A DNA stretch of 64,000 nt from Escherichia coli (GTDB lineage Bacteria; Pseudomonadota; Gammaproteobacteria; Enterobacterales; Enterobacteriaceae): the NCBI RefSeq assembly GCF_011045215.1, contig NZ_CP049201.1. One strand, given 5' to 3'. Made by a program: the position numbers. The number at the start of each line of letters is the position of its first letter. The first letter of the stretch is position 1. Shown here piece after piece: positions 55,103-58,100 of this stretch.

Positions 55103-58100
55103 TGGCTCAGCGTATGCGCCATTTGCTTACATACGGGCTTAAACCCTAAGGGGCACCAGGCTGCATACGTTTTGCCAAATCTGTTCTCTGCTCATGATAA
55201 CGAAGAACCAGGATACAAGGTGAAAGAAGATCCTCAACGCTCAGGGGCGTAATGTTCCCTGTGTTTCATGCCCCCATCGTTTGTTGCTGTGGTGCCAGAC
55301 TTCCGAGGCACTTCCATGTCGTTTTGTTTTTGTCAGCATCATAAATGCGTCGGGACTGGTGAATGGAGATAAGCCGTTTTATTATCGGGATCAGCGAACA
55401 TACTCACAATGTCGGAATGTTTCTGAACTGAACAATAAGTTTTGTGCTGATTACAGTATGTGAAGGAGGTCAGGCACAATGAATCCTGCTTATATGCAAG
55501 CCTTGCAGATATCCCCCCACTTCCCCGCCAATATAACCAGGCGATTATTTCCTGGTGAGCTTGCATTCCTCATTGAAGACTTATATGCAAGTACCCAACT
55601 TCCGCTGGAGCTCATTTTTAATACTGTACTGGCAACGCTCTCACTCTCCTGTCAGTCACTGGTTGACGTTGTTCATCCTCACACCAACATGCCGGAACCC
55701 TGCTCACTTTATCTGTTGGCAATCGCAGAGCCAGGCGCGGGAAAAACAACGATAAACAGACTGGTGATGAACCCCTGTTACGAATTTGCTGATCGACTCA
55801 TTCAACAATACGAAGAGAGAAACAAAGATTATAAGACTGAACTACAGATCTGGAATACCCGGCAGAAAGCGCTTGCTGCCAATTTAAGAAAGGCTGTTAA
55901 CCGGGGGTATCCGGGGGAACAGGAAGAAGAGGCACTGCGTAATCACGAAAGAAATAAACCGACACGTCCGGTTCGACCGAATTTTATCTATGAAGATGTT
56001 TCGCTTAAAGCGCTTGTGGAAGGGCTCAATGAACATCCTGAGGTAGGGGTTATTTCTGATGAGGCGGTCACTTTTTTCAGAAGCTATCTGAAAAATTATC
56101 CGGGCCTGTTGAATAAAGCATGGAGTGGGCAACCGTTTGATTTTGGACGGGCTGACGAGAAATACCATATCACGCCACGACTGACATTTTCGTTAATGTC
56201 CCAGCCGGATGTCTTTACGAATTATATAAATAAAAATGACGTACTGGCGTGGGGAAGCGGATTTCTTTCCCGGTTTCTGTTCAGTCAGGTTGTAAGTTCT
56301 TCCTGGATACGTGATTATACGAGAGGCGAGTTCAGAACAATACCAACCCTGGAGAAATTTCATAAAAAGATTAACGGATTTCTGTTAAGCCATAACATTA
56401 ATTCCCCCGGCACGAGCACCGAAAGGAAGACATTAAAACTTGCGAAAAAAGCGTTGGGGGAGTGGCAGGAAAACCAGATTAAGATTGAAAGAAAAACGCT
56501 TGCAGGAGGGGAGTGGGAACACATCAGAGATATTGTGCTGAAAGCAGGTTCTAATATACTGAGGATAGCGGGTTTATTCACCTGCTATTGCTATAAAGAT
56601 GCTGAGGAAATTGAATCAATTGCGCTTTTTAAAGCTATGCATCTCATGGACTGGTATCTGGAGGAAGCGAGCACAATATTTTATCCCATGTCTGAACGAT
56701 GCCAGTTTGAACAGGATAGCCGTGAGCTGTATACATGGATTATGACCCGAATCAGACAGAATAACTGGTGTGCTATCAGGAAAACAGACATTGAAAGATA
56801 TGGTCCCAATCGTCTGAGAAGAGCAGAAAAACTTACACCTGTGCTCAATCAGTTAATCTGTCAGGGGTATTTATGTATCATCAGAATGCGAACGCATCAG
56901 ACACTTTATGTTTCTGTTCGTTATAATAATGGTTGCATCCCTCCTTTTGGCGCAATGTCTTACGAATCATTTGAGATTATTCCACCCGAGAATAGCCATA
57001 ATGCGAAAACATATCACGTTAATATTCCACCGGAATTAATTCCGCCATTTGCGTTACCTTTTTCAACCCATGGCTTATTTTGAAATAAACTAACACAGAT
57101 AAAACGAAAAAAATCAACCTTCATTCGAAGGTTGGTGGTAAGGCGTTTTGCATATCCCGCATCTGTGCAAATGTTCACCATCTATGGGGCATGAACGAAA
57201 ATTTCTCTGAAAAAATCGCTACGGTAGCAACAGTAGCAGCACATGCACTATATATGTGATTTGATTTTGTTTTCATAATGACCTGCTGTCAGAGTTGGTT
57301 GAATACAGGAGTGTGCGCACTGGTGGAAGAATGGCTTTCGTTTTTTATAAAAAGAAAGTGAACAGAAATGCTATTTTTAACATGTCTGAAGCTAATCATA
57401 TAACCATATTATGTGAGTTTTTATATATAACTTTTTTTGATTCTTGTCGTGATGAGTGCCGGCGTATATGACGATGTTGGTCTCTATTATGAATAATGAA
57501 TGGTTATCAGTCTGTTACTGGCAAGAGATGCTGTTCAGGTTTCAATGGGAGATTGAAGAAAAACGATTTGATCTTTTTCTGTAAGAGAATGTTTTTCTTA
57601 GGCTTGTATTCAGGACGTAGGATTTCTTATTTTTACTCATCAGATATGGATAATTTTAATTTAGGTTTATTACTATAATTAATATCTGTCTCTTTATTTT
57701 CTATCCATCTTTGTCATTCATCTCTCCTCTCTATCTTTACACATTCCATTACTATTATTTTCATCCAGTTATACTCACTCATGTCCTTCTCCAGTCTTCA
57801 CTGTCACTATTATAACAATATCCTCTCCATCCATATCTCAATCATGACGATTGTAACTCATATGATATTCAGGTGTATTCTCTACCATTCTACTGACAGA
57901 TATTCATCTGTTCTCATGTTCAGTGAGACAGTAATTGATTTTAATCTTGTCCGTCATGCGTTATCATTGTTTAACAATAATTGTTTATCTGAAGTGTTTT
58001 AACTATTCTGGTGAACATCAATTCTTCTGTCATCACTGATTAACTGAATGTTTACTCTTTGATAAGGTGTCTATGATTCCGTCATGTTTAACAGCGCAGG

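What the first reader, a model, noticed from the sequence alone, without database searches (positions are those of the whole stretch)
55479..57083. DUF3987-like P-loop protein next to the Rep-like genes
This 534 aa protein carries a Walker A motif and resembles the YfjI-type proteins of CP4-57, which are associated with primase/helicase functions of integrative elements. Together with the Gp2-like genes and AlpA it forms the replication/excision side of the island, but its exact role is unknown.
Basis: partly seen in the sequence, partly recalled or inferred. Interest (0 to 1): 0.35.

Follow-up and report, generated by a model that had tools for sequence, protein, structure and literature searches.

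The report
MCM-like helicase gene of pheV island
The ORF is a real, intact gene for a YfjI/DUF3987-family ATPase, a bacterial mobile-element relative of the MCM replication helicase; it sits beside nicking-enzyme genes and an AlpA regulator gene in an E. coli genomic island, and it is an ordinary, already catalogued gene.

Summary
ORF 55479-57083 (+, 534 aa) has a strong Shine-Dalgarno site and matches Pfam DUF3987 end to end (E 3e-73). It is 30% identical to K-12 CP4-57 YfjI. RefSeq names near-identical E. coli genes "YfjI family protein".

- Walker A G86/K89
- pre-sensor-1 hairpin R224
- Q242
- the MCM-like "SRF" arginine finger R265
- R362
- winged-helix R447

Walker B E195, nearly invariant, is present too. 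There is no primase domain.

In 8 of 9 contexts the gene lies with AlpA and a YagK/YfjJ protein. That protein has an HUH-nuclease fold and motifs.

The window is E. coli chromosome. The island ends at a tRNA-Phe (pheV) 3' repeat at 40345-40367.

Published work already classes DUF3987 as an SF6/MCM-related helicase, and one member is a proven 5'-3' helicase.

Most likely this is the hexameric helicase of the island's post-excision replication or transfer module. That role is inferred, not shown. No origin was found, and similar islands lack the gene.

Interest is low: it is already known.

The parts
55479..57083 (+). YfjI-family (DUF3987) gene, 534 aa: an MCM-like AAA+ helicase-type ATPase with a C-terminal winged helix
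55463..55469 (+). Shine-Dalgarno AAGGAGG, 9 nt before the ATG
   Evidence: read from the sequence
55725..55748 (+). Walker A / P-loop AEPGAGKT (residues 83-90). G86 and K89 are invariant in the family. Compare the MCM motif GDPGTAKS.
55770..55949 (+). long helical arm (residues 98-157) inserted after the P-loop helix, where MCM carries its helix-2 insert
   Evidence: secondary structure of the model; the positional equivalence with MCM is inferred
56052..56063 (+). Walker B ISDE (residues 192-195) at the end of strand 188-193
56136..56171 (+). beta-hairpin (residues 220-231) between Walker B and the sensor-1 strand, taken as the pre-sensor-1 hairpin; R224 is invariant
56202..56207 (+). Q242-P243 at the end of strand 234-241, the sensor-1 position (MCM has N-P); Q242 is invariant
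   Evidence: the assignment is inferred
56268..56276 (+). S264-R265-F266, an 'SRF' arginine-finger motif as in MCM LSRFDL; R265 is invariant
   Evidence: the assignment is inferred
56343..56690 (+). helical lid (residues 289-404) with nearly invariant K355 and invariant R362 (candidate sensor 2)
56694..56918 (+). [quoted passage not shown]
   Evidence: winged-helix sub-hits
56919..57080 (+). proline-rich tail of low model confidence (residues 481-534); it evolves fast between E. coli alleles
53577..54308 (+). YagK/YfjJ (inovirus Gp2-type) protein, 243 aa, with an HUH-nuclease fold, HYH and YxxK motifs, and a 45-aa disordered insert
54593..55042 (-). IS110-family transposase remnant between the YfjJ-like and YfjI-like genes, shared with E. 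coli C5 and E06
58673..59239 (+). second Gp2-type paralog, 188 aa; it keeps HAH and YxxK
59467..60072 (+). degenerate Gp2-type paralog that has lost the HUH and Tyr motifs
60141..60374 (+). AlpA-family excision regulator, 77 aa
60641..61204 (+). degenerate Gp2-type paralog; its homolog in E. coli TUM12357 is annotated 'YagK/YfjJ domain-containing'
40345..40367 (-). 23-nt copy of the 3' end of tRNA-Phe (2 mismatches), marking the distal end of the pheV island next to yghD/gspM

Best explanation
The gene encodes a stand-alone member of the DUF3987/YfjI family. This is an AAA+ ATPase of the MCM-related (superfamily 6, pre-sensor-1 hairpin) clade, with a short helical N-terminus, a lid and a C-terminal winged helix. 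By analogy with MCM and with the characterised DUF3987 helicase AgaPH, it most likely forms a ring. ATP would be hydrolysed at subunit interfaces: K89 and D194/E195 in cis, the R265 'SRF' finger in trans, with Q242 and K355/R362 as sensors. The ring would pull single-stranded DNA through its pore with the R224 hairpin. Within the island it is the helicase of a module made of AlpA (excision switch), HUH nickase-type YfjJ proteins and YfjI. After AlpA/integrase-driven excision, a YfjJ protein is proposed to nick the circle. YfjI would then unwind from that site, either for rolling-circle-type amplification or for single-strand transfer of the island, using host polymerase and no element-encoded primase. 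Shown here: family membership, fold, intact catalytic residues, purifying selection on the core, and conserved linkage with AlpA and YfjJ. Inferred: oligomeric state, helicase activity, the partnership with YfjJ, and the biological role.
Against: No member of the enterobacterial YfjI clade has been tested biochemically, and AgaPH is a distant, PriCT-fused relative. No origin-like iterons or tandem repeats were found around the gene. The gene sits in an IS-scarred, mosaic stretch. Otherwise homologous islands (E. coli RM8082, TUM12357) lack it, so it is dispensable for carriage of the island. Truncated alleles are common (P0005 and P0006). In K-12, AlpA overproduction cures CP4-57 (PMC3105296), so the excised circle is not stably maintained despite yfjI-yfjJ. 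Another helicase gene, a UvrD-like SF1 with ankyrin repeats, lies just downstream of the AlpA cluster; SF1 is the type classically used by HUH Rep proteins. Residue-level equivalence with MCM motifs rests on motif order and the model's secondary structure. hhalign against the SsoMCM sequence gave no significant alignment.
Confidence: 0.6

Rival explanations
1. Mobilisation rather than replication. YfjJ acts as a Rep-type (HUH) relaxase at an oriT in the island. YfjI is the accompanying helicase that feeds the nicked strand to a conjugation apparatus or a phage supplied in trans, making the island an integrative mobilisable element.
For: YfjJ has an HUH fold and motifs. AgaPH has 5'-3' polarity (PMC11724360), the polarity of relaxase-associated helicases (own knowledge of TraI). 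The conserved backbone next to the module (antirestriction, RadC, DUF932) resembles gene sets found in plasmid and ICE leading regions (own knowledge). Related AlpA/Gp2-type islands in Pseudomonas are moved by a jumbo phage (PMC12595487).
Against: No oriT, coupling protein or mating-pair genes are present in the window. No MOB-family match was found for any of the island proteins scanned. That jumbo-phage transfer is transduction and does not need a relaxase.
Confidence: 0.15
2. Vestigial gene. It is a leftover of a once autonomous P4-like or satellite replicon and has no present function in this island.
For: The surroundings are IS-ridden and mosaic (IS110 remnant). Two of the four Gp2-type paralogs are degenerate. 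The gene is absent from otherwise similar islands. Truncated alleles are frequent. AlpA-induced excision leads to loss of CP4-57 in K-12 (PMC3105296). The N-terminus and tail evolve nearly neutrally.
Against: The 534-codon frame is intact with a strong SD. Every family-invariant residue is retained. Core dN/dS is 0.03-0.19. The linkage with AlpA and YfjJ holds across genera at 35-57% identity.
Confidence: 0.17
3. Phage-directed function. The ATPase interferes with, or exploits, the replication of an infecting helper phage, as anti-phage defence or satellite-type hijacking, rather than replicating the island itself.
Against: There is no PADLOC match. The gene belongs to the conserved AlpA/YfjJ core, not the variable cargo. 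The closest structural relatives are replicative helicases by a wide margin.
Confidence: 0.08

Closest known systems
YfjI of E. coli K-12 cryptic prophage CP4-57 (b2625, DUF3987 domain-containing protein)
   Same: It belongs to the same Pfam family and aligns over 453 residues (30% identity, E 1e-58). Its neighbours are the same: alpA, yfjJ, then the GTPase/DUF932/antirestriction/RadC/CbtA backbone.
   Different: It is a distant paralog, not an ortholog. The window protein is 65 aa longer at the C-terminus. Its P-loop reads AEPGAGKT against AESGERKS. Its island is at pheV, not ssrA, and gene order and orientation differ. Neither protein has a tested function.
AgaPH, the PriCT-DUF3987 helicase of a pAgo-carrying element of Seonamhaeicola (PMC11724360)
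   Same: It has a DUF3987 ATPase domain with Walker A and B and a small C-terminal domain, and it is encoded on an integrase-bearing mobile element. It is the only family member with demonstrated helicase activity: 5'-3', driven by ATP or dATP, and oligomeric.
   Different: AgaPH has an N-terminal PriCT domain and works with an adjacent AEP primase-polymerase. The window protein has neither; it is linked to HUH-type YfjJ proteins instead.
MCM replicative helicases (archaeal MCM, eukaryotic Mcm2-7; Pfam PF00493)
   Different: There is no detectable sequence-profile match. The N-terminal OB-fold/zinc domain is absent. A long helical arm stands in place of the helix-2 insert. Gln replaces Asn at the sensor-1 position. 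The one tested DUF3987 helicase runs 5'-3', opposite to MCM.
Cch, the MCM-like helicase (DUF927) of staphylococcal SCCmec (PDB 5dgk; cited in PMC11724360 and PMC5862659)
   Different: It belongs to a different Pfam family (DUF927), is a weaker structural match than MCM itself, and has different partner genes.
'prim' gene of PICMI phage satellites (PMC10803314)
   Same: The satellite core is int + alpA + prim, and the detection model defines prim by DUF3987/DUF5906. Deleting prim lowers the copy number of the excised element. AlpA is the excision switch.
   Different: PICMIs are six-gene elements of Vibrionaceae integrated next to fis. I did not compare the PICMI115 protein with the window protein. 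The present island is at least 23.6 kb and full of unrelated cargo.
Parvovirus NS1 / AAV Rep / CRESS-virus Rep (HUH nuclease fused to an SF3 helicase)
   Same: The logic is the same if the YfjJ-YfjI partnership is real: an HUH nickase plus a ring AAA+ helicase and no primase. The YfjJ-like model's best hits are the NS1 and Rep nuclease domains.
   Different: Here there are two separate genes, the helicase is from the MCM-like clade rather than SF3, and the partnership is only inferred from linkage.

Membership tests
DUF3987 / YfjI family (PF13148) | Full-length match to the family profile above the curated threshold | tested here: met
   E 3.3e-73, 247.4 bits against a cut-off of 27; residues 40-401 match profile positions 1-362 of 364.
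DUF3987 / YfjI family (PF13148) | Homology to the eponymous K-12 YfjI | tested here: met
   BLASTP gives 30% identity over 453 aa at E 1e-58. RefSeq names the 94-97% identical E. coli genes 'YfjI family protein'.
DUF3987 / YfjI family (PF13148) | Conserved Walker A lysine and Walker B acidic residues, which are required for AgaPH helicase activity | tested here: met
   G86 and K89 are invariant and E195 is nearly invariant in 41 diverse members, and all are present here. D194 and E195 are conserved in the 30-member alignment.
DUF3987 / YfjI family (PF13148) | [quoted passage not shown] | tested here: met
DUF3987 / YfjI family (PF13148) | Association with an AEP or DnaG primase, by fusion or as an adjacent gene (frequent in the family, not obligatory) | tested here: not met
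   No primase domain is present in the protein, in any island ORF scanned, or in 8 related loci. Two ORFs without any family match (433 aa and 376 aa) cannot be excluded.
DUF3987 / YfjI family (PF13148) | ATP-dependent DNA unwinding | not testable with these tools
   This needs purified protein. It is shown only for AgaPH (PMC11724360).
MCM family / SF6 AAA+ helicases (PF00493) | AAA+ core of the pre-sensor-1 hairpin clade, structurally superimposable on the MCM ATPase domain | tested here: met
MCM family / SF6 AAA+ helicases (PF00493) | Sequence-profile membership in PF00493 | tested here: not met
   No MCM hit appears even at E<=10 for 30 members or in PDB profile searches. hhalign against the SsoMCM AAA+ sequence gives probability 0.9%. 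The literature reports 98% HHsearch probability for a phage member (PMC4889955); I did not reproduce this.
MCM family / SF6 AAA+ helicases (PF00493) | Catalytic motif set: Walker A GDPxxAKS, Walker B, sensor-1 Asn, SRF arginine finger, sensor-2 Arg | tested here: inconclusive
   AEPGAGKT, ISDE, LSRF (R265) and R362 occur in the right order and on the right secondary-structure elements. Sensor 1 is an invariant Gln, not Asn. No residue-level structural alignment was available.
MCM family / SF6 AAA+ helicases (PF00493) | N-terminal OB-fold/zinc-binding domain and helix-2 insert hairpin | tested here: not met
   The N-terminus is about 60 aa of helices. Residues 98-157 form long helices where the helix-2 insert would be.
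P4 alpha-type primase-helicase of P4-like satellites | Toprim primase domain plus a D5-like SF3 helicase (DUF5906) | tested here: not met
   DUF3987 is the only Pfam family found. The similarity is positional only: next to an AlpA/Vis-type gene, with P4 cII near one homolog.
Phage satellite of the PICMI type (SatelliteFinder model: int + alpA + prim co-localised) | Integrase, AlpA and a DUF3987/DUF5906 protein together in a small element | tested here: inconclusive
   AlpA and DUF3987 are present 3 kb apart. No integrase lies inside the window; it is expected beyond the right end, next to pheV. The element is at least 23.6 kb, far larger than a PICMI.

The most novel reading that the evidence does not exclude
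CP4-57-type tRNA/tmRNA islands of Enterobacterales carry a split, primase-less replicon: an HUH nickase (YfjJ) plus an MCM-like ring helicase (YfjI) under AlpA control. This would be a bacterial two-gene counterpart of parvovirus NS1, AAV Rep and CRESS Rep. It would transiently amplify or mobilise the excised island, so that these 'cryptic prophages' would in fact be replicative, satellite-like elements.
Probability: 0.25. Interest if true: 0.55.

Novelty: already known. Interest (0 to 1): 0.2.

Why it matters
As it stands this is an annotation refinement. A 'DUF' or 'P-loop' gene on a common E. coli pheV island can be read as an MCM-like helicase with all catalytic residues intact. It is linked to HUH nickase genes rather than to a primase. 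If the inferred YfjJ-YfjI partnership were shown experimentally, it would explain how a very widespread class of enterobacterial islands behaves after excision. This allele group alone matches 939 of 5426 complete E. coli genomes, and the family has about 24,000 clusters at 50% identity. It would also add a bacterial example of the nickase-plus-ring-helicase replication logic known from small eukaryotic DNA viruses.

Tried and rejected
- Solved relatives by sequence: phmmer and a profile search of PDB found nothing.
- NCBIfam gave no model for the protein.
- Residue-level link to MCM: I verified a SsoMCM AAA+ sequence against PDB at 100% identity. hhalign of the family alignment against it aligned only the last lid helix at 0.9% probability. 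I therefore assigned motifs by order and secondary structure and marked them as inferred.
- Weak Pfam hits at E<=10 for 30 members showed no MCM, AAA or primase family.
- Origin search: direct and inverted repeats, short-seed repeats and TRF around the gene and in the AT-rich gaps gave only chance-level two-copy matches.
- Rfam at E<=0.1 over 40000-64000 found nothing.
- The promoter scan was at shuffle level. Terminator-like hairpins were enriched but uninformative.
- Defence role: no PADLOC match.
- Phage origin: tblastn against 50,697 phage records gave only 3 weak hits at 22-30% identity. This clade is carried by islands, not by sequenced phages.
- A primase-helicase reading was rejected because no Toprim, AEP or PriCT domain is present.
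- The CP4-57 excision paper (PMC2754048) was not available.

Full report
**Observation.** A consensus Shine-Dalgarno AAGGAGG lies 9 nt upstream. It matches Pfam DUF3987 (PF13148) over essentially the whole model, at E 3.3e-73 and 247 bits against a threshold of 27. It also matches PHROG 2373 'DNA helicase' at E 1.4e-41. NCBIfam has no model for it. The stated neighbours are real. A YagK/YfjJ_C plus REP_ORF2-G2P protein lies at 53577-54308. A weaker relative lies at 58673-59239. An AlpA-family protein lies at 60141-60374.

**Where it sits.** The window is E. coli chromosome. The gspL-yghD(gspM) segment is 99.7% identical to E. coli genomes, and in island-free strains it runs directly into tRNA-Phe. 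In the window that position (40345-40367, - strand) holds only the last 23 nt of tRNA-Phe, with 2 mismatches; no such match is expected by chance. ARAGORN finds no tRNA in the window.
- Everything from 40368 to the right end is therefore a pheV-type island of at least 23.6 kb. Its integrase and intact pheV lie beyond the window.
- From the distal tip inward it carries AbiEi/AbiEii, DUF4942, DUF5983, CbtA, RadC, antirestriction, DUF932, DUF4234, a WYL regulator and a GTPase. This is the backbone of K-12 CP4-57 and its relatives.
- After the GTPase, on the opposite strand, come a 376-aa orphan, the YfjJ-like gene, an IS110 remnant, the YfjI-like gene, three more Gp2-type paralogs and AlpA.
- DNA 94-97% identical, with the same IS110 scar, occurs in 330 complete E. 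coli genomes, where PGAP calls the gene 'YfjI family protein'. Partial matches raise this to 939 of 5426 genomes.

**What the protein is.** It is 30% identical to K-12 YfjI over 453 residues (E 1e-58), so it is a distant paralog within the same family. It has no sequence relative among solved structures. An AlphaFold model built on 30 homologs is confident (pLDDT 84.8, pTM 0.83).
- Read along the model, the protein has about 60 residues of N-terminal helices, then strand 78-82 leading into the P-loop AEPGAGKT (83-90).
- A long helical arm (98-157) follows. Strand 188-193 ends in ISDE (Walker B).
- A beta-hairpin at 220-231 comes next, then strand 234-241 ending in Q242-P243, then S264-R265-F266 just before strand 266-270.
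- The rest is a helical lid (289-404), a winged helix (406-480) and a tail of low confidence.
- Compared with a SsoMCM sequence that I verified against PDB, the P-loop (GDPGTAKS), the N-P sensor-1 position and the LSRFDL arginine finger have obvious counterparts. This equivalence is inferred from order and secondary structure. hhalign against that single sequence was not significant.

**Is it intact and under selection?** A profile search of 1.84 billion cluster representatives finds 23,758 family members at E<=1e-3.
- Most close relatives are stand-alone proteins of 450-560 aa.
- A minority carry N-terminal Prim-Pol, BT4734-like AEP or Toprim domains.
- Across 41 members at 22-39% identity, fused forms included, the invariant columns are G86, K89, R224, Q242, G261, R265, R362 and R447. 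E195, W215 and K355 are nearly invariant. The window protein has all of them.
- Position 88 varies between G and R in the family: K-12 has AESGERKS, and the largest E. coli cluster has AEPGARKT.
- Between the window allele and two E. coli alleles, dN/dS is 0.33-0.48 overall. It is 0.03-0.19 for residues 60-405. It is about 0.5-0.8 for the first 59 residues in comparisons involving the window allele, and up to about 2 for the tail. The numbers of differences are small.

**Linkage.** I examined seven homologs at 35-57% identity from other genera, plus K-12 and the window. In 8 of these 9 contexts the DUF3987 gene lies within about 3 kb of both an AlpA gene and a YagK/YfjJ gene, usually followed by the GTPase/DUF932/antirestriction/RadC/CbeA/CbtA backbone. 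No primase appears in any of them. The exception is.
- The YfjJ-like neighbour passes the REP_ORF2-G2P threshold.
- It keeps an HYH motif and a YxxK motif that are conserved in K-12 YfjJ and in the YfjJ-type neighbours of three of the homologs above.
- Of the four paralogs in the window, two keep these motifs and two have lost them.

**What the literature already says.**
- Kazlauskas et al. assigned DUF3987 to superfamily 6, distantly related to MCM. They described a C-terminal wHTH and frequent primase association, and predicted a replicative helicase (PMC4889955; also PMC5862659).
- In 2025 a PriCT-DUF3987 protein, AgaPH, was shown to be an oligomeric 5'-3' DNA helicase driven by ATP or dATP. 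Walker A and Walker B mutations abolish its activity (PMC11724360).
- In the PICMI satellites of Vibrionaceae the core is int + alpA + prim, where the detection model defines prim by DUF3987/DUF5906. Deleting prim reduces the copy number of the excised element (PMC10803314).
- Pseudomonas tmRNA islands with intY, alpA, Gp2-like and RadC genes are transduced by a jumbo phage (PMC12595487).
- In K-12, AlpA overproduction excises and cures CP4-57 (PMC3105296).
- I found no paper testing YfjI or YfjJ themselves.

**Interpretation.** The gene most likely encodes the ring helicase of the island's AlpA-controlled post-excision module, working from a nick made by a YfjJ-type HUH protein.
- This is a nickase-plus-ring-helicase arrangement without a primase. 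It resembles parvovirus NS1, AAV Rep and CRESS Rep in logic, but it is split into two genes and uses an MCM-like rather than an SF3 motor.
- Family, fold, intact catalytic residues, core constraint and linkage are shown here.
- Ring formation, unwinding, polarity, the YfjJ partnership and the biological outcome (amplification or transfer) are inferred.

**Evidence against a current role.**
- No iterons or origin-like repeats were found.
- The setting is IS-scarred and mosaic, and the gene is absent from otherwise homologous islands.
- Truncated alleles are common.
- CP4-57 is cured by AlpA in K-12 (PMC3105296).
- The rivals are conjugative or phage mobilisation with YfjJ as a relaxase, a vestigial gene, and a phage-directed role. 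They are scored in the rivals section. PADLOC has no match for the protein, and sequenced phages carry only very distant relatives.

**Verdict.** The gene is ordinary: a named family, a published fold assignment, a biochemically characterised relative, and hundreds of near-identical annotated copies. The only mildly new point is the consistent pairing with HUH-type YfjJ proteins instead of primases. It is a hypothesis worth a simple qPCR test, not a discovery. Interest 0.2; novelty: already known.

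Noticed in passing
window 61201-64000 (+): A reading frame stays open for 933 codons to the end of the window. The ORF listing does not list it because it runs off the end. It encodes a UvrD-like SF1 helicase with C-terminal ankyrin repeats, annotated in E. coli TUM12357 as a 970-aa 'ankyrin repeat domain-containing protein'. It is a second helicase gene, located directly after the AlpA/Gp2 cluster.
   Followed up: partly
window 40345-40367 (-): A 23-nt copy of the 3' end of tRNA-Phe (2 mismatches) lies next to yghD/gspM and marks the distal end of a pheV island. The intact pheV and the integrase must lie beyond the right end of the window.
   Followed up: yes
window 40551-41922 (-): An AbiEi/AbiEii abortive-infection toxin-antitoxin pair sits at the very tip of the island (PADLOC E 1e-50 and 5e-125).
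   Followed up: partly
window 53577-54308, 58673-59239, 59467-60072, 60641-61204 (+): There are four paralogs of the YagK/YfjJ (inovirus Gp2-type) HUH family in 8 kb. Two keep the HUH and YxxK motifs and two are degenerate. The first carries a 45-aa disordered Ser/Pro/Asp-rich insert (residues about 150-195).
   Followed up: yes
window 53514-53584 and 59281-59346: About 70 nt upstream of the first Gp2-type gene resembles (71-72%) a stretch upstream of the third paralog, including a shared GTCAACGGAGATC core. This may be a conserved leader or operator of these genes.
   Followed up: no
window 52043-53576 and 57084-58672: Two stretches of about 1.5 kb at about 34% GC have no ORF over 80 aa and no Rfam match. 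Islands that lack yfjI resume homology at about 57730, so 57084-57730 travels with yfjI.
   Followed up: partly
window 57103-57135: A perfect 8-bp hairpin (CAACCTTC-ATTC-GAAGGTTG) lies 20 nt after the yfjI stop codon and is preceded by a run of 7 A. It reads as an intrinsic terminator on the minus strand only.
   Followed up: no
window 55725-55748; protein clusters P0001 and K-12 YfjI: Residue 88, just before the P-loop lysine, is G here but R in K-12 YfjI and in the largest E. coli cluster (1422 member sequences). Position 85 is P here, as in MCM, but S in most of the family.
   Followed up: partly
window 47616-48917 (-) and 50912-52042 (+): Two sizeable ORFs (433 and 376 aa) flank the GTPase/WYL pair and have no Pfam match; the 376-aa ORF also has no PHROG or NCBIfam match. 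Both are conserved in related E. coli islands as 'hypothetical protein'.
   Followed up: no
window 21379-40196 (+): To the left of the island lies the chromosomal glcA - sslE/yghJ (M60 peptidase, 1525 aa) - pppA - type II secretion (gspC-M) cluster.
   Followed up: partly
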